Source: a virus
Strand: one strand, 5' to 3'
IMG/VR virus record: IMGVR_UViG_3300025018_000100
DNA: 64,000 bases
Shown here: positions 4,436 through 61,137 of the stretch, piece by piece
Position numbering within the stretch: the first letter of the stretch is position 1
Layout of the letters: each line of letters begins with the position of its first letter
The notes under the pieces: generated by a model
Databases searched by the model: none
What the model was told of the DNA's origin: nothing
Seen by the model: the letters and a program-made list of their open reading frames with translations, nothing else
Made by a program: the position numbers and the translations under genes

Positions 4436-4860
4436 TTCTCTTCTTCCTTTTTAGCAGCTTCACTAAATAATTCTAAGTCATTCATAGAATCAGTAATAAA
4501 CTGATCAAAAACAGTGCTATCAGATAATAAATCTAAAGCATCTTCAGGAGAGTAAGGAATTTCATCATTAGGATTAACATTACTTAAATCAACAGCCATT
4601 AACTCAGAAAGATGCTTAAACTTTAAGCCCTTCCAACCTTTGATAACCGCGTCACAATAAAGTGATAAGAATTTTTCATTATCAATTTCTTCTTCTCTTT
4701 GTTTGGTTGATCTATTAAATTTCATTTTTAAACATTTATTACGAATCTTAATTAATTCGTCTTTAGGTAGATAAGCTAAGGTGATTACAAATCCCTCAAT
4801 ATCAGGAAACTCAACATCTACTAACTTTTCTTTAATTTCTAAACTTTTGATTAAACTCAT
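4405..4860 (-). CDS. Tail assembly chaperone (gpG-like)
   Basis: Between major tail protein and TMP; IKGWKGL motif; slippery heptamers near the 3' end. Confidence 0.85.
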   Translation of the reverse strand: MSLIKSLEIKEKLVDVEFPDIEGFVITLAYLPKDELIKIRNKCLKMKFNRSTKQREEEIDNEKFLSLYCDAVIKGWKGLKFKHLSELMAVDLSNVNPNDEIPYSPEDALDLLSDSTVFDQFITDSMNDLELFSEAAKKEEEKNLKNTSKVG

Positions 4861-24577: not shown

Positions 24578-25126
24578 ATGACATGTATAGTTGGGTTACG
24601 TAATGATAAAGGAGTTATACTGGCAGGAGATAGTGCCGGAGTTGAGGGATTCAACGTAACCATTAGAAAAGATAGTAAAGTTTTTAAGGTAAATAACATA
24701 TTAATTGGATATACTAGTAGCTTTAGAATGGGACAAATTATACGTTATCATTTAGATATAACGTATAGTGGGGACGAAGATGAATATGATTGGATGGTAA
24801 CTGTTTTTATTCCTCATATAAGAAAAATTCTACAAGAGCATGGATTTACTAAAATAAATAATAACGAAGAGTCCGGAGGTGTCTTTCTCGTAGGAATTAA
24901 TAATAGGTTATTTATAGTAGAATCAGATTTTCAAGTGGGAGAAAGTAATTTAGTATATGAGAGCGTAGGTTGTGGAGAAAAATATGCTAAAGGATATATT
25001 TATGCGGCTCTAGGAAATATTAATAATACAAGAACAGAAGAACAAATAGTAGAAGGTGCATTATACTGCGCTACTAACTTTAGTGCAGGTGTAAGACCTC
25101 CTTTTAACTTTATCAAGAACTATTAA
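24578..25126 (+). CDS. HslV/proteasome-beta-like Ntn-hydrolase protease
   Basis: N-terminal MTCIVG (catalytic Thr), AGDS, SKVF, SVGCG..YA.G. Confidence 0.8.
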   Translation: MTCIVGLRNDKGVILAGDSAGVEGFNVTIRKDSKVFKVNNILIGYTSSFRMGQIIRYHLDITYSGDEDEYDWMVTVFIPHIRKILQEHGFTKINNNEESGGVFLVGINNRLFIVESDFQVGESNLVYESVGCGEKYAKGYIYAALGNINNTRTEEQIVEGALYCATNFSAGVRPPFNFIKNY

Positions 25127-29725: not shown

Positions 29726-29781
29726 CTTTATTCTTATTCTACACAAAACTTGTGTATTAGCACCGCCAGGAAACCTTCTCC

Positions 29782-29796
29782 TACCCCTGTAGGGTA
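29782..29796. promoter_or_regulatory. CsoR/RcnR-family-type operator
   Basis: TACCC-CTGTA-GGGTA: TAC/GTA flanking C- and G-tracts. Confidence 0.4.
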
Positions 29797-29880
29797 ACAC
29801 GGTTTTACCATACTTGTAAAGCTAATTTTATTTCGTTGTTTATATTATTTGAGAAATATTATTAGCCAATAAAGGCACCG

Positions 29881-29895
29881 GAACAAAACGTGAAC
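29881..29895. promoter_or_regulatory. Alphaproteobacterial LexA box
   Basis: GAAC-AAAACGT-GAAC matches GAAC-N7-GAAC exactly; a second near-match GAAC-N7-AAAC at 29971-29985. Confidence 0.6.
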
Positions 29896-29915
29896 AAACA
29901 GGGTGCAGCGCAATA

Positions 29916-29949
29916 TGGCATGATAATTGCATAAGCAATTTATATGCCA
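29916..29949. promoter_or_regulatory. Two inverted sigma54 (-24/-12) sites
   Basis: TGGCATGATAATTGCA (+) and TGGCATATAAATTGCT (-), both with GG-N10-GC spacing, 2 bp apart. Confidence 0.65.
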
Positions 29950-30185
29950 TTAAGAATAGATCGCATTAGAGAACAAAAGATAAACATAAAGCATTACTAA
30001 ACTATAGGAATAAGCCTATTTTACACAAAAAATATGGGTTAAAATGAATAGAATATAGATAAACCCAAACTATGCTAAGAATAGATTAACCCATTAATTT
30101 TATTAAATAATATTTTAGTGTTTACATACCTATTAAATGCCTCTATTATAATGCCAGGTAAACAAAACTGGAAAGGACCAAAACA

Positions 30186-30836
30186 ATGGCAATTAAGAGC
30201 AACCACGCATTTTCCCGCACATTACGTAATCAATTGCGAGAAACCTTTAACAACGCGCAATGCGTTTATAAGGATATCCAGGACCAAGTACCGGCGCTCA
30301 TTACCTTAGACAATGGGGAATTTGACCATATACTAGCGCGGGAATTTGCCTATTTGGAAAAGGATATGCAAGCGGCGATTAAGAATGCCGGTTATCCAAA
30401 AACACTTTGGCAAAATTTCGCTATCAATAGCCATGTTAATTGCGCGCGTGTTAGCGCGTCTGGGAATTGGCTAAAAGGACAACAAGAAAAGTCTTTGATG
30501 GTTATCAAACAAGATAACGCGGTGATTGTTCACGCCATGCGATATTTTGCGCGTGTATGGGGTCTTAACGGGAAAAGAAAAATTGTTCTCAAATCCGTCG
30601 CCAACAAAACAAAACATCTTGCAATCAAAGCAAACGAATATGAAGCGCTTTCCGTTCGTGCGGTACGCTTGGAACATACTAAAGGGGATTTAGATAAATT
30701 TAGTATGTCTCACAATTGGATTAAAGAGGGGAAGGAATATAAAAGGCAAATTTTAAAATTCGGGGATGAAACTCCAGAAGCGAAAGCGCATTTAAAGAAA
30801 ATGAAACAGACCATAAAGGAATACATGGTTTACTGA
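30186..30836 (+). CDS. Pre-early protein, possible HNH-like nuclease
   Basis: EFDHIL...VNCARVSASGNWLKG resembles an HNH motif; own promoter, RBS and terminator (30841-30866). Confidence 0.5.
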   Translation: MAIKSNHAFSRTLRNQLRETFNNAQCVYKDIQDQVPALITLDNGEFDHILAREFAYLEKDMQAAIKNAGYPKTLWQNFAINSHVNCARVSASGNWLKGQQEKSLMVIKQDNAVIVHAMRYFARVWGLNGKRKIVLKSVANKTKHLAIKANEYEALSVRAVRLEHTKGDLDKFSMSHNWIKEGKEYKRQILKFGDETPEAKAHLKKMKQTIKEYMVY

Positions 30837-30873
30837 AAAATATGGGGGGAAGCAATTCCCCCCATATACCTAC

Positions 30874-31006
30874 CTGAATTGCGAATGATTATCATTCCTG
30901 ACTGAATTGCGAATGATTATCATTCCTGACTGAATTGCGAATGATTATCATTCCTGACTGAATTGCGAATGATTATCATTCCTGACTGAATTGCGAATGA
31001 TTATCA
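30874..31006 (+). repeat. Tandem array of 28-bp units (4 full + 1 partial), each with a Fur-box-like site
   Basis: CTGAATTGCGAATGATTATCATTCCTGA at 30874, 30902, 30930, 30958 and 30986 (21 nt). Confidence 0.95.
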
Positions 31007-31224
31007 AGAGAAAAATAGTTAAAAATTTTTCTGCACCTGTACGAAATCGAAATAAAAAAGTGAGAAAGTAAGTGCCAAATTTAGATTTAGCACCTGTATG
31101 AAAACGACTAATTTTTGTATTAATTCTATCTCAAAAATAATGATATAAAATGAAAAATAATAGTTGACTAGTATTAATATAAAGACTATATTATATTTAT
31201 TGAAACACTCAAAGGAGATAGAAA

Positions 31225-31428
31225 ATGTTTTACGAAAGAGTTACCAAAGTCACACAAGACTGGTTAAACACTCTCAGAAACAATGCTTCAAGAAAAGACT
31301 TTGTAGTTGGTTCTATGTGCGCTAAAATGGGACTAGCTTTAGCTACAGCGGAGAGAGCCCAAAAAAGTGACGATCTTAAGACAATACAAGAGGATTTAGA
31401 AAGGATTATTAAAATCTTAGAGAAGTGA
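31225..31428 (+). CDS. Hypothetical protein (cassette)
   Basis: TTGACT promoter, AAGGAG RBS, terminator. Confidence 0.75.
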   Translation: MFYERVTKVTQDWLNTLRNNASRKDFVVGSMCAKMGLALATAERAQKSDDLKTIQEDLERIIKILEK

Positions 31429-40235: not shown

Positions 40236-40568
40236 ATGGCACAAGCAAAGTTTAAGTGGACGCAGGATGCTTCTCAAAAAGCTGTTTCCATGTATGTCGA
40301 AGCTGACAAGTCTCAAAATTCTCTGGACGATATCGCACGGGCGCTGTCTACAGAAGAGGTGCAAGTCTCTCGGCGGCAGGTTATCGCCAAGCTGACCAGT
40401 GAAAAAGTATATATTCGGCCGGAACCGGCTCCGAAGGCTCCCAAGGACGAGGGTCCGACTAAGGCTGAAATTATGGCACGTATCTCTGCGACCGGTTTTG
40501 ACACAGAGGGTTTTGAAGGTGCTACTAAGCCCGCTCTGACCCGTCTGGCTGTTATGCTGGAGGGCTAA
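40236..40568 (+). CDS. A2: T5 A2-like DNA-binding protein
   Basis: KFKWTQDASQKAVSMY...AKLTSEKVY resembles T5 A2 (KFAWNEENTQKAVSMY...SKLTSAKAY) as recalled. Confidence 0.75.
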   Translation: MAQAKFKWTQDASQKAVSMYVEADKSQNSLDDIARALSTEEVQVSRRQVIAKLTSEKVYIRPEPAPKAPKDEGPTKAEIMARISATGFDTEGFEGATKPALTRLAVMLEG

Positions 40569-40697: not shown

Positions 40698-40965
40698 TTA
40701 GTAGTCTTCTTCATTTTCTACTAAATCATCGTAGCAATCATCGCAAACCAAATCACTCTTAAAATCATTCTGTTCACTAGAGTCACACCACCAACCGCAA
40801 CAATTGCAAGAAAAAAACGGAAGTTTCAATGTAGTGCCAGTCATCCGCCGTCAAATCATCTATATCAAATCCTAAACTTTCGGCGGTACTTTCATCATAA
40901 ATACCAGAAGACCCTAACACTGTAGAAGTAAATTCGTCTAACTTTTGATCGGATACACTACGCAT
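40698..40965 (-). pseudogene. Zn-finger-like gene with a frameshift at a T7 run
   Basis: The +1 frame after GTTTTTTTC gives CNCCGWWCD...CDDC and a stop at 40698 abutting the element. Confidence 0.65.
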
Positions 40966-41537
40966 TAATTTTTTCCTTCAAAAAAAGGTTCTGTATATAA
41001 GCCCATATTTGCAAGTTTACAAATTAGGCTCCTAACGGTACGGCCTACCGCTTGTGCGGCTTTTTCTAAACTTTTTTTACCGTACCATATCCACATACGA
41101 ACAATAAACAATACATGCTTAACTGTCCAGCGAATATTTGCATCACTTACAAATCTTTCGGAGTAATTCCTAACATCGCGCACAAATTGAGGGGCTTTCA
41201 CAATCTTAACCTGTTTTTTCATCAAACGATTGTAATGGTCTAAAGCCAGTGCATAGTTTTTCTTGTGACGGCGTATAAGCAAATCATCATAAGAAAAACA
41301 ATTACGCGCACGATTTAAGCGGGACCATACTGGAACAAGATTTTCAATTTCATTTTTCCCACCTTGTGCAACAGGTTTAATATGATCAATATCCAAAGTA
41401 ACTACAATTTTTTCTTGTGTTACTGGGTCAATAATAATCGCCCCCTCTTTCAATTTAGTTAAGGCACAAACACGCCCATGACCTTCATATACAGCCATTA
41501 ACATTTTCTCAGGAATTGGTTCACGCTTATTAGTCAT
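40965..41537 (-). CDS. HNH endonuclease
   Basis: LDIDHIKPVAQGGKNEIENL...LNRAR. Confidence 0.8.
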   Translation of the reverse strand: MTNKREPIPEKMLMAVYEGHGRVCALTKLKEGAIIIDPVTQEKIVVTLDIDHIKPVAQGGKNEIENLVPVWSRLNRARNCFSYDDLLIRRHKKNYALALDHYNRLMKKQVKIVKAPQFVRDVRNYSERFVSDANIRWTVKHVLFIVRMWIWYGKKSLEKAAQAVGRTVRSLICKLANMGLYTEPFFEGKN

Positions 41538-44601: not shown

Positions 44602-45156
44602 ATGTTTAAACGAGTTACAATTTTTGACCTTGATATGACTATCGTGGATAGTAGTCACCGTACACCTAACAAGCCGGACGGGACACTAGACTTGTTTGGT
44701 TACTTTGAGCGGAAAACCCGGCAACATATTTTCAGTGACCGTTTATTGCCGCTTGCTGTTGTTATGCGTGACCTATTTTATTCGGGTGAAACCTATGTTG
44801 TAATTTGTACCGCCCGCGACATGAATGATGATGATTTTGACTTCCTTAACGCTAAGGAAATTCCTTATCATAAAATTCTTAATCGCAATCTGGTGCGGGA
44901 TGCTACAGAAATTACTTGTCCGGTTCAACTTTTTCAATATATTTCCGAGGGTAAGATTAAGACTAAACCTTATTATATGAAAAGCGATCATTTATATAAG
45001 GCCCATGTTTTGTCTTACTTAGATCAACTAAAGCAATTCAAAAACTTGCCTAAGTTTTTCTGGGATGATGCTCGACCTGTTATTTCTCATTTTAGGAAAC
45101 ATCCTAATTATACTATGATGAATGCGGTTACATATAACCAACGCCTAGCAGCTTAA
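44602..45156 (+). CDS. dmp: Deoxynucleoside-5'-monophosphatase (HAD family, T5 Dmp-like)
   Basis: FDLDMTIVDSSHR...G.LDL...LLPL...ICTAR...WDD, paralleling T5 Dmp. Confidence 0.8.
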   Translation: MFKRVTIFDLDMTIVDSSHRTPNKPDGTLDLFGYFERKTRQHIFSDRLLPLAVVMRDLFYSGETYVVICTARDMNDDDFDFLNAKEIPYHKILNRNLVRDATEITCPVQLFQYISEGKIKTKPYYMKSDHLYKAHVLSYLDQLKQFKNLPKFFWDDARPVISHFRKHPNYTMMNAVTYNQRLAA

Positions 45157-45455: not shown

Positions 45456-45698
45456 TTAAACAATATACATGTTTTTTACACGCTTGTCTATATAAAAAGT
45501 TAAATAATCAAAAAAATAAAAGCGAGTAAAAACAATAGGTTAGATGACGACCCGCCGTAGGCGGGTTAACTGTTAACCTATTGATTTTAAACGATAATTA
45601 TTTTAAAAATAGTTGTTGACGAGCGATAGCAATAACTGTATAACTATAGGACTGAAAACGGCAATGGTGCTGTGAAGTTTAACACGAAGAGGCTAAAC

Positions 45699-46774: not shown

Positions 46775-46899
46775 TTATCTCCTTATTTAAGATACGTATA
46801 CTATAATACATTTTGCATGAAATGCAACAACTAAATTAGTCAACTATTTCAATAGGTTAGGTGACAACCCGCCGTAGGCGGGTGGCCAGTTAAGCAACT

Positions 46900-61061: not shown

Positions 61062-61137
61062 TGGTGTTTCAGGTGGGACTTTAACCCACACGCGAAACGC
61101 TTTAGAGGCGCCTGCTCTAATATTGAGCTACTGAAAC
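61062..61137 (-). tRNA. tRNA with CUA anticodon (amber suppressor)
   Basis: Perfect GTTTCAG/CTGAAAC acceptor plus ACCA; GGCGC-CTCTAAA-GCGTT anticodon arm; own promoter at 61169-61197. Confidence 0.7.

What the first reader, a model, noticed from the sequence alone, without database searches (positions are those of the whole stretch)
30874..31006. Five tandem Fur-box-like sites with no gene to regulate
Seen: 28-bp unit x4.75. Each full unit contains the perfect 7-1-7 palindrome GAATGAT-T-ATCATTC, and ATTGCGAATGATTATCATT matches AATGATAATNATTATCATT at 16/19. The TGCGA half resembles alphaproteobacterial Fur boxes. The array follows a terminator and lies ~160 bp from the next -35. Known: multicopy Fur boxes titrate Fur (the FURTA principle), and T5-type phages often use iron-uptake receptors. 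Inference: a DNA decoy that derepresses iron uptake, or an iron-sensing platform on the first-injected DNA. A further single Fur-like box (TGATAACGAGTCGCA, 46937-46951) lies at the other end of the cassette array.
Basis: partly seen in the sequence, partly recalled or inferred. Interest (0 to 1): 0.85.

Follow-up and report, generated by a model that had tools for sequence, protein, structure and literature searches.

The report
Fur-box array in T5-like phage
A distant, uncultured relative of phage T5 carries, in gene-free DNA with no promoter over it, five head-to-tail copies of a sequence that scores like a top-grade binding site for the bacterial iron regulator Fur; T5 has the same kind of array in its unexplained "injection stop" region, so Fur is a host protein that can be tested there.

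Summary
Window 30874-31006 is a perfect 28-bp x 4.75 tandem array.

- **Fur-box match:** each unit holds the 19-mer ATTGCGAATGATTATCATT. It gives the best hits in the 64 kb with two Fur matrices. One I learnt de novo from E. coli Fur promoters. The other I built from published Caulobacter Fur sites. One native Caulobacter site is 18/19 identical.
- **No promoter:** the array overlaps none. It sits between a hairpin and two short repeats.
- **Phage type:** a distant T5-like phage (TerL about 40% identical) with homologues of the T5 pre-early genes A2 and dmp. I found no A1.
- **Same kind of array elsewhere:** 19-bp Fur boxes at a 28-29 bp period occur in the T5 injection-stop region, in phi92- and phAPEC8-like phages, and in an unrelated rIIA/rIIB phage contig.
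- **Copy number:** two assemblies give at least 4.4 units, one gives 1.75, and short-k contigs break inside the array.
- **Limits:** Fur binding and function are untested, the host and genome ends are unknown, and the best complete relative lacks the array.

This scan has noted Fur-box arrays at T5 injection-stop regions many times on other DNA. My literature searches found no published report. The decoy idea is unsupported; a cis-acting Fur platform fits better.

The parts
30840..30867 (.). GC-rich 12-bp-stem hairpin directly after the stop codon of ORF216. The T-run lies on the minus-strand side, so it is a better intrinsic terminator for leftward transcripts.
30874..31006 (.). Perfect 28-bp x 4.75 tandem array. 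Fur-type 19-mers start at 30878, 30906, 30934, 30962 and 30990, separated by 9-bp linkers CCTGACTGA. The last box ends at 31008, 2 bp past the array.
31033..31107 (+). Two copies of the 18-bp direct repeat GCACCTGTAYGAAAWCGA (31033-31050 and 31090-31107) in AT-rich DNA. Function unknown. It does not match the T5 DRD repeat.
31164..31428 (+). Sigma-70-like promoter (TTGACT-17-TATATT, 31164-31192) and the first single-gene cassette (67 aa, 31225-31428).
30186..30836 (+). ORF216, the gene just upstream of the array. It is an orphan: the only match in the 5.8-billion-protein search was itself. No Pfam or PHROG family, and only a weak His-Me/HNH lead.
29730..30110 (.). Gene-free spacer one gene upstream. 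It holds GAAC-N7-GAAC (29881-29895), TGGCAT-N5-TTGCA (about 29917-29932, located by eye) and one DnaA-box match (30019-30027). None of these is above chance by count.
40236..40568 (+). Homologue of the T5 pre-early DNA-binding protein A2 (phrog_1725, the same family as T5 A2).
44602..45156 (+). Homologue of the T5 pre-early 5'-deoxyribonucleotidase Dmp (phrog_415, the same family as T5 Dmp).
46935..46953 (.). Single Fur-type box AATGATAACGAGTCGCAAC at the left edge of a 1.25-kb gene-free hub.

Best explanation
The array is a cluster of five operators for the host's Fur-family metal regulator (Fur, or Mur if the host is a Rhizobiales or Rhodobacterales type). It lies in promoter-free DNA between two early transcription units of a distant T5-like phage.

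I read it as the counterpart of the DRC repeats and palindromes E-I in the T5 injection-stop region. On that reading, metal-loaded Fur dimers load side by side on 19-bp boxes set 28 bp apart. They build a nucleoprotein block that acts in cis on the phage DNA, as a boundary, roadblock or anchor on early-entering DNA that depends on host iron status. It does not act as a repressor of a particular promoter.

Shown: the sequence match, the promoter-free position, and the recurrence of this architecture in other phages.
Inferred: that Fur binds.
Speculative: what the bound complex does.
For: 1. A palindromic 19-mer learnt blind from 13 E. coli Fur promoter regions ranks the four full units as the top four hits of the window. 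They score 18.3 bits against a shuffle maximum of 17.4, or 21.1 bits flat. The training sites score 12.6-24.5.
2. A matrix from the top 8 C. crescentus sites ranks all five units as the top five, at 16.9 and 16.5 bits.
3. The native CC_0028 TonB-receptor site is 18/19 identical to the unit, differing only at the centre. The CC_0710 site is 17/19.
4. A weaker second hit lies 6 bp away (5.9 bits), as in footprinted Fur clusters.
5. blastn with 3 kb around the array hit only the array itself. The matches were T5-like phages, at two places per record, inside the gene-free terminal-repeat region.
6. The homologous stretch of T5 is annotated 'injection stop signal' and is kept in 621 phage records.
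7. The T5-like arrays hold 6-12 boxes of 19-26.6 bits, mostly 29 bp apart. Their linkers are unrelated to this one, so the box and the period recur while the linker does not.
8. The same architecture occurs in unrelated phages: phi92- and phAPEC8-like phages, and an rIIA/rIIB-TerL contig with nine boxes at 28-29 bp. This favours a host ligand over a lineage-specific phage protein.
9. The phage is T5-like and encodes A2 and Dmp homologues in the same rightward block.
Against: - There are no binding data of any kind.
- The host is unknown. The alphaproteobacterial hint (GAAC-N7-GAAC) is at chance frequency: 1 found, 0.97 expected.
- The only complete relative I could scan (TerL 63% identical, 173.5 kb) has no such array. 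The array is therefore dispensable in this lineage, or recently gained.
- All units are 100% identical and copy number differs between assemblies, which is what a young, unstable repeat looks like.
- The paired DnaA boxes, LexA box, DRD repeats and A1 gene of T5 were not found.
- The order array-A2-dmp relative to the late and early blocks differs from T5.
- The blastn similarity to T5-like arrays is no higher than to unrelated phi92-like phages. It may be convergence on the Fur box rather than common descent.
- With the small Caulobacter matrix, a single unit (16.9 bits) is not above the best shuffle (19.8).
Confidence: 0.55

Rival explanations
1. Decoy or sponge. The boxes titrate holo-Fur away from host promoters and derepress iron uptake or other Fur-regulon genes for the phage's benefit.
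For: - The units are strong Fur boxes and overlap no promoter.
- Multicopy Fur boxes do titrate Fur; this is the FURTA principle (my knowledge).
- After replication, hundreds of genomes with five or more boxes each could approach the size of the Fur pool (my estimate).
Against: - At entry, one genome offers only 5-10 sites against thousands of Fur molecules (my knowledge).
- The best-studied carriers, T5-like phages, degrade host DNA within minutes. Derepressing host genes would then have no effect.
- The conserved 28-29 bp spacing and the position near genome ends or module boundaries in several phage groups point to a cis role.
- A sponge would not need either property.
Confidence: 0.12
2. 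The real ligand is a phage protein, for example the A2-family DNA-binding protein or the orphan ORF216 next door. The Fur-box likeness would then be mimicry or coincidence.
For: - An A2 homologue is kept in this distant phage together with the array.
- In T5, A2 is a DNA-binding protein needed for the second transfer step.
- ORF216 lies directly upstream of the array, as initiator and repressor genes often lie beside their sites.
Against: - The unit is 18/19 identical to a native bacterial Fur site and tops two Fur matrices.
- The same box arrays occur in unrelated phages. In the rIIA/rIIB contig, tblastn with the T5 pre-early proteins, A2 included, found nothing.
- ORF216 has no detectable DNA-binding fold or family, and its AlphaFold model has pLDDT 40.
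Confidence: 0.15
3. Iteron-type replication origin: direct repeats beside an AT-rich stretch, with ORF216 as the initiator.
For: - Five direct repeats are followed by about 150 bp of AT-rich DNA.
- One DnaA-box match lies about 850 bp upstream.
Against: - Each unit is palindromic. A 28-bp period is 2.7 helical turns, so successive units are not on one face of the helix, whereas iterons are usually about 22 bp apart (my knowledge).
- DnaA-box matches are below chance: 4 found against 8 expected.
- The equivalent T5 arrays lie far from the T5 origins.
- Better iteron candidates lie at 47045-47247.
Confidence: 0.06
4. A young, functionless tandem duplication of one Fur-like site, with its copy number inflated or deflated by assembly.
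For: - The units are 100% identical.
- Assemblies give 1.75, at least 4.4 and 4.75 units, and contigs break at the array.
- The array is absent from the 63%-TerL relative.
Against: - More than two units are required by the k=31 contig breaks, and at least 4.4 are present in a second assembly.
- Multi-box arrays at the same period recur with diverged units and linkers in other phages. That argues for selection on multiplicity.
Confidence: 0.1

Closest known systems
T5 'Repeat Region 3' / injection stop signal: direct repeat C copies 1-4 and palindromes E-I (AY587007 9468-9637; Heusterspreute 1987; Wang 2005; Davison bioRxiv 10.1101/866236)
   Same: - Both are a promoter-free cluster of AATG(A/C)GAAT...ATCATT boxes in gene-free DNA of a T5-type phage, after a terminator-like hairpin (putative rho-independent terminators are annotated upstream in T5) and before short direct repeats.
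- Box spacing is mostly 29 bp in T5-like phages and 28 bp here.
- blastn links the two directly.
   Different: - Here the array is a perfect tandem of one unit.
- It has no adjacent paired DnaA boxes in IRD'/IRC', no CTGT-N8-ACAG box and no DRD repeats.
- I detected no A1 gene, and A2 and dmp lie on the other side and in the other orientation.
- The terminal repeat is not mapped.
- The published descriptions I read do not mention Fur.
Chromosomal Fur operators (E. coli ryhB, fhuF, entC and others; C. crescentus CC_0028, CC_0710, sdhC; Chen 2007 PMC2189734; da Silva Neto 2009 PMC2724300)
   Same: - The same 19-bp 9-1-9 motif.
- Scores lie within the range of native operators.
- 18/19 identity to a native site.
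- A secondary site offset by 6 bp.
   Different: - Native clusters overlap promoters, and their sites overlap at 3- or 6-bp offsets.
- Here, discrete boxes are spaced 28 bp apart with no promoter.
Fur-box clusters in gene-free regions of phi92-, phAPEC8- and rV5-like coliphages
   Same: Four to five strong Fur boxes (17-26.6 bits) in gene-free, repeat-rich DNA of strictly lytic phages.
   Different: - The phage family is unrelated.
- The boxes are irregularly spaced and not a perfect tandem.
- I found no publication on them.
FURTA (Fur titration assay) and regulator-sponge DNA
   Same: Multiple Fur boxes that are not tied to a gene.
   Different: FURTA relies on high-copy plasmids. Nothing here shows titration, and the regular spacing and position argue for a cis role.

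Membership tests
Fur operator (Fur box) | 19-bp 9-1-9 inverted repeat matching the Fur matrix within the range of proven sites | tested here: met
   - 21.1 bits flat, against 12.6-24.5 for the E. coli training sites.
- Top five hits with the C. crescentus matrix.
- 18/19 identical to CC_0028.
Fur operator (Fur box) | Metal-dependent binding by Fur (EMSA, footprint, FURTA) | not testable with these tools
Fur operator (Fur box) | Overlaps or closely flanks a promoter that it controls | tested here: not met
   No sigma-70-like promoter lies in 30874-31006 on either strand. The nearest -35 is 158 bp downstream.
T5 injection-stop region (Repeat Region 3) | Lies in a gene-free stretch of a T5-like (Demerecviridae-type) genome among the pre-early genes | tested here: inconclusive
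   - The phage is T5-like.
- A2 and Dmp homologues lie in the same rightward block.
- They are 9-14 kb away and in a different order from T5.
T5 injection-stop region (Repeat Region 3) | Inside the long terminal repeat, near its inner end | not testable with these tools
   I had no reads, and no whole genome is held. This needs coverage and read-end analysis.
T5 injection-stop region (Repeat Region 3) | DRC/DRE-type repeats with palindromes (AATGNGAAT...ATCATT cores) | tested here: met
   Direct blastn matches to those repeats in HMD-P4, KEY, phiR2-01 and AAS21, with the same box.
T5 injection-stop region (Repeat Region 3) | Paired DnaA boxes in the IRD'-spacer-IRC' inverted repeat, and DRD repeats TGTGCRAATCCGAC | tested here: not met
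   - DnaA-box matches: 4 in 64 kb against 8 expected, none paired.
- No DRD matches; the only hits fall inside the tRNA genes.
T5 injection-stop region (Repeat Region 3) | A1 and A2 proteins that restart DNA transfer | tested here: inconclusive
   - The A2 family is present (phrog_1725).
- A1 (phrog_1745) was not found in the window by tblastn, nor in the ORFs I scanned.
- The rest of the genome was not available.
Iteron replication origin | Non-palindromic direct repeats in helical phase, an adjacent initiator gene, DnaA boxes and an AT-rich unwinding element | tested here: not met
   - The units are palindromic and the period is 28 bp.
- DnaA boxes are not enriched.
- ORF216 has no recognisable initiator family.
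- Only the AT-rich flank fits.

The most novel reading that the evidence does not exclude
Regularly spaced Fur-box arrays (19-bp box, 28-29 bp period) are a general module of virulent phages, placed at genome ends, terminal repeats or module boundaries. Holo-Fur would be the unknown host factor that builds a nucleoprotein structure there. In T5-type phages that structure would set or stabilise the pause between first-step and second-step DNA transfer, or mark the terminal-repeat boundary, so making infection depend on host iron status. This phage keeps the Fur array but not the DnaA, LexA or DRD elements, which would point to the Fur array as the conserved core.
Probability: 0.2. Interest if true: 0.85.

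Novelty: new variant of a known kind. Interest (0 to 1): 0.55.

Why it matters
The T5 injection stop signal has been mapped to a repeat-rich region for decades with no protein assigned to it. The pause is described as preceding pre-early gene expression, so a host or virion factor is expected.

Its repeats are strong Fur boxes by sequence. The same box-and-period architecture turns up in a far-diverged, AT-rich T5-like phage from a metagenome and in unrelated phages. That makes Fur a concrete candidate, and standard tools can test it in T5 itself.

It also links phage entry or early control to host iron status. This is relevant for phages that use iron-regulated outer-membrane receptors.

For this window the added value is evolutionary breadth. 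It also gives a natural minimal version: the Fur array without the DnaA, LexA or DRD elements.

Tried and rejected
- **Close relatives carrying the array.**
  - An exact-pattern scan of IMG/VR found no contig with three or more exact-pattern matches.
  - The upstream ORF216 has no relative in IMG/VR or in 5.8 billion proteins.
  - TerL relatives of 60-66% identity were fetched. Five records, including a complete 173.5-kb one, have no array. Apparent hits at the syntenic place were coding repeats.
- **Whole genome.** None is held, and the ENA record could not be searched.
- **T5 elements.** I searched for a DnaA-box cluster, an E. coli-type LexA box and T5 DRD repeats. All are absent or at chance level.
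- **Alpha-type LexA box.** It is present once at 29881, but one is expected by chance. I therefore do not rest the host call on it.
- **ORF216 as the binding protein.** No Pfam hit even at E=10. The AlphaFold model is too poor to use, at pLDDT 40. The Atlas gives only weak HNH/GmrSD_C leads.
- **Structured RNA.** No Rfam family reaches its gathering score. The strong single-strand fold merely reflects the palindromes.
- **Published Fur-T5 link.** None found in four full-text searches and two T5 papers. Davison 2015 is not held.
- **Rejected alternatives.** An ArgR box, because the half-site spacing is wrong (my reading), and the ICE/Irr and RirA boxes, because their consensus sequences do not match.

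Full report
**1. The observation**

Window 30874-31006 is a perfect tandem array: period 28, 4.8 copies, 100% matches, TRF score 266 (sequence). The unit is CTGAATTGCGAATGATTATCATTCCTGA.

Each full unit holds the perfect palindrome GAATGAT-T-ATCATTC. At 2 or fewer mismatches this 15-mer occurs only in the array. At 3 or fewer mismatches there are 14 matches against 4.06 expected, and no shuffle of 100 reaches 14.

The array follows a 12-bp-stem hairpin at 30840-30867, directly after the stop codon of a 216-aa ORF (30186-30836). It ends 158 bp before the -35 box of the next promoter (31164-31192), which drives a 67-aa gene at 31225-31428. No sigma-70-like promoter overlaps the array on either strand.

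**2. Is the repeat an assembly artefact?**

The same locus occurs in other public assemblies with 100% identical flanks.
- An ENA MEGAHIT contig of 200,719 bp has only 1.75 units. That is exactly 84 bp, or three units, fewer. There are no mismatches in the other 6.6 kb.
- A JGI contig of 33,139 bp starts 10 bp into unit 1 and carries 4.4 units.
- Two Logan contigs (k=31) stop exactly 30 periodic bases into the array from either side. This happens only if a 31-mer recurs, so those reads hold more than about 2.1 units.

The repeat is therefore real and multi-copy. The number 4.75 should be read as "at least about 4.4, exact count unsettled".

**3. Is it Fur-box-like beyond chance?**

I fetched 13 promoter regions of classical Fur-repressed E. 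coli K-12 genes: fepA-fes, fepD-entS, fepB-entC, fhuA, feoA, ryhB, fiu, cirA, tonB, exbB, fecI, fecA and fhuF. I then ran a blind palindromic 19-mer search on them.

With this matrix:
- The four full units (19-mers starting at 30878, 30906, 30934 and 30962) are the four best hits in the 64 kb. They score 18.3 bits against the window's AT-rich background.
- The highest maximum in 100 Markov shuffles is 17.4.
- The truncated fifth unit scores 11.6.
- On a flat background the unit scores 21.1 bits, inside the 12.6-24.5 range of the training sites.
- A weaker hit lies 6 bp downstream (5.9 bits). Footprinted Fur clusters show the same 6-bp offset (Chen et al. 2007).

As an independent check I used the published C. 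crescentus Fur sites (da Silva Neto et al. 2009, Table 3).
- The CC_0028 TonB-receptor site ATTGCGAATAATTATCATT is 18/19 identical to the unit. It differs only at the uninformative centre.
- The CC_0710 site is 17/19.
- A matrix from the top eight rows ranks all five units as the five best hits of the window, at 16.9 bits and 16.5 for the fifth.
- That small matrix has a noisy null, with a shuffle maximum of 19.8.

**4. What phage is this?**

- **Late genes.** The minus-strand block 1-24285 encodes tape measure, major tail protein, a protease-capsid fusion, portal and large terminase. The terminase's best database matches are all Demerecviridae, at about 40% identity.
- **Rightward block.** From 24578 onward, small rightward genes follow.
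- **Pre-early homologues.** tblastn with the T5 pre-early proteins finds a Dmp homologue at 44602-45156 (E 4e-13) and an A2 homologue at 40236-40568 (E 3e-5). They fall in the same PHROG families as T5 Dmp (phrog_415) and T5 A2 (phrog_1725).
- **A1.** This protein (phrog_1745) was not found in the window.
- **Relatives and host.** Environmental relatives with 60-66% terminase identity are common in IMG/VR. The host is unknown. I see that box, but one such match is expected by chance in 64 kb. I treat the host call as a hint only.

**5. Counterparts elsewhere**

blastn with 3 kb around the array matched only through the array itself. The hits were Salmonella phage HMD-P4 and Erwinia phage KEY, at two places per record. 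With the array alone as query it also hit Yersinia phage phiR2-01 and Pantoea phage AAS21.

In these phages the match lies in the 1.1-1.8 kb gene-free stretch at the end of the pre-early genes. In phiR2-01 it lies inside the annotated terminal repeat. This stretch is T5 "Repeat Region 3".
- In T5 (AY587007) the stretch carries direct repeat C copies 1-4 and palindromes E-I.
- Record AY692264 labels it "injection stop signal".
- It is conserved in 621 phage records.

Scored with the E. coli matrix, these regions hold 6-12 boxes of 19-26.6 bits. That equals or exceeds the best chromosomal operators in my training set.
- The commonest spacing is 29 bp. Here it is 28 bp.
- The linkers between boxes are unrelated.
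- The best unit in phiR2-01 differs from the window's unit by one base.

The same query also hit phi92-, phAPEC8- and alia-type myophages, which carry 4-5 such boxes in gene-free DNA.

Among IMG/VR contigs fetched by exact pattern, one stands out (L026, with the same array in L039). It has nine diverged boxes at 28-29 bp, in the gap between primase-helicase, rIIB and rIIA genes on one side and terminase and portal genes on the other. It shows no protein similarity to T5 pre-early genes.

So the architecture of 19-bp Fur boxes at a 28-29 bp period recurs in unrelated virulent phages. That favours a shared host ligand. It also means the similarity to T5 may be convergence rather than descent.

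**6. How far the T5 analogy holds**

Features that fit:
- The phage type.
- The gene-free, promoter-free setting after a hairpin.
- Short direct repeats just downstream (two copies of GCACCTGTAYGAAAWCGA).
- A2 and Dmp homologues in the same rightward block.

Features that do not fit:
- No paired DnaA boxes, no CTGT-N8-ACAG box and no DRD repeats.
- No A1.
- A2 and Dmp lie 9-14 kb to the right and are transcribed away from the array. The array is therefore nearer the late genes than the early, tRNA-bearing block, the reverse of T5.
- The terminal repeat cannot be mapped without reads.
- The one complete relative I could scan lacks any Fur array.

**7. Mechanism**

- *Shown:* sequence identity with Fur operators, absence of a promoter, regular spacing, and recurrence in other phages.
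- *Inferred:* metal-loaded Fur, or Mur in a Rhizobiales or Rhodobacterales host (the two motifs resemble each other), occupies the five boxes.
- *Speculative:* the complex acts in cis as a boundary, roadblock or anchor on early-entering DNA, and makes that step depend on iron status.

I rank the decoy idea lower, for three reasons.
- One entering genome offers few sites compared with the size of the Fur pool (my knowledge).
- T5-type phages destroy host DNA early.
- Regular spacing and position are not needed for a sponge.

A phage ligand, an iteron origin and a functionless young duplication remain possible. I give them 0.15, 0.06 and 0.10.

**8. Novelty**

The T5 repeats have been annotated for decades, but their function is unknown.
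- Davison's comparative paper names DnaA and never mentions Fur or iron.
- Full-text searches pairing T5 or T5-like phages with Fur found nothing relevant.
- A 2026 T5 preprint still describes the stop signal only as repeats and palindromes.
- Within this scan, the Fur reading of T5 injection-stop repeats and of phi92-type genome ends has been reached many times on other DNA. My own tests agree with it.

New in this window:
- A far-diverged, uncultured T5-like lineage.
- The array as a perfect tandem.
- A box that fits the alphaproteobacterial variant as well as the enterobacterial one.
- The array present without the other T5 elements.

Noticed in passing
window 46780-48050: A 1.25-kb gene-free hub at the right end of the rightward gene block. 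It holds five iteron-like copies of ACTAGTAGAWAAYCGAAC (47045-47247), other short repeats, and the single Fur-type box at 46935. It could be a replication origin or a genome-end region.
   Followed up: partly
window 40236-40568 and 44602-45156: Homologues of the T5 pre-early proteins A2 (phrog_1725) and Dmp (phrog_415). A minus-strand HNH/endonuclease VII gene (40965-41537) lies between them. No A1 homologue was found in the window.
   Followed up: yes
window 30186-30836: ORF216 is an orphan; the 5.8-billion-protein search found only itself. The ESM Atlas gives weak HNH/GmrSD_C leads. If it is a homing endonuclease, it may have split an originally continuous gene-free region (29730-31220), as an HNH gene splits T5 Repeat Regions 1 and 2.
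   Followed up: partly
L026 7820-8230 (IMGVR_UViG_3300030382_001539), same array in L039: Nine diverged Fur-type boxes at a 28-29 bp period, in the gap between primase-helicase/rIIB/rIIA genes (minus strand) and an unknown gene plus terminase and portal genes (plus strand). This phage is not T5-like.
   Followed up: partly
L001 about 4781-4800 and L002 about 4671-4690: Read by eye: a near-perfect E. coli-type LexA box (CTGTATATTTATACAG) sits just before the paired DnaA boxes and the Fur-box cluster in T5-like injection-stop regions. These regions therefore stack sites for three host DNA-binding proteins.
   Followed up: no
window 35874 and 44518: The same 19-mer AACGATAATTATTTTTAAA (13 bits with the E. 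coli Fur matrix) occurs twice, with a close variant at 45590. It is probably part of a repeated cassette element rather than a Fur site.
   Followed up: no
window 61062-61137: ARAGORN calls a tRNA with anticodon CTA (labelled tRNA-Pyl), which would be a possible amber-suppressor tRNA. It lies in the minus-strand block that also holds a tRNA-Met.
   Followed up: no
window 24578-25126: The first gene of the rightward block resembles an HslV/proteasome-type peptidase (phrog_1040, E 9e-18; Pfam Proteasome just above its cut-off).
   Followed up: no
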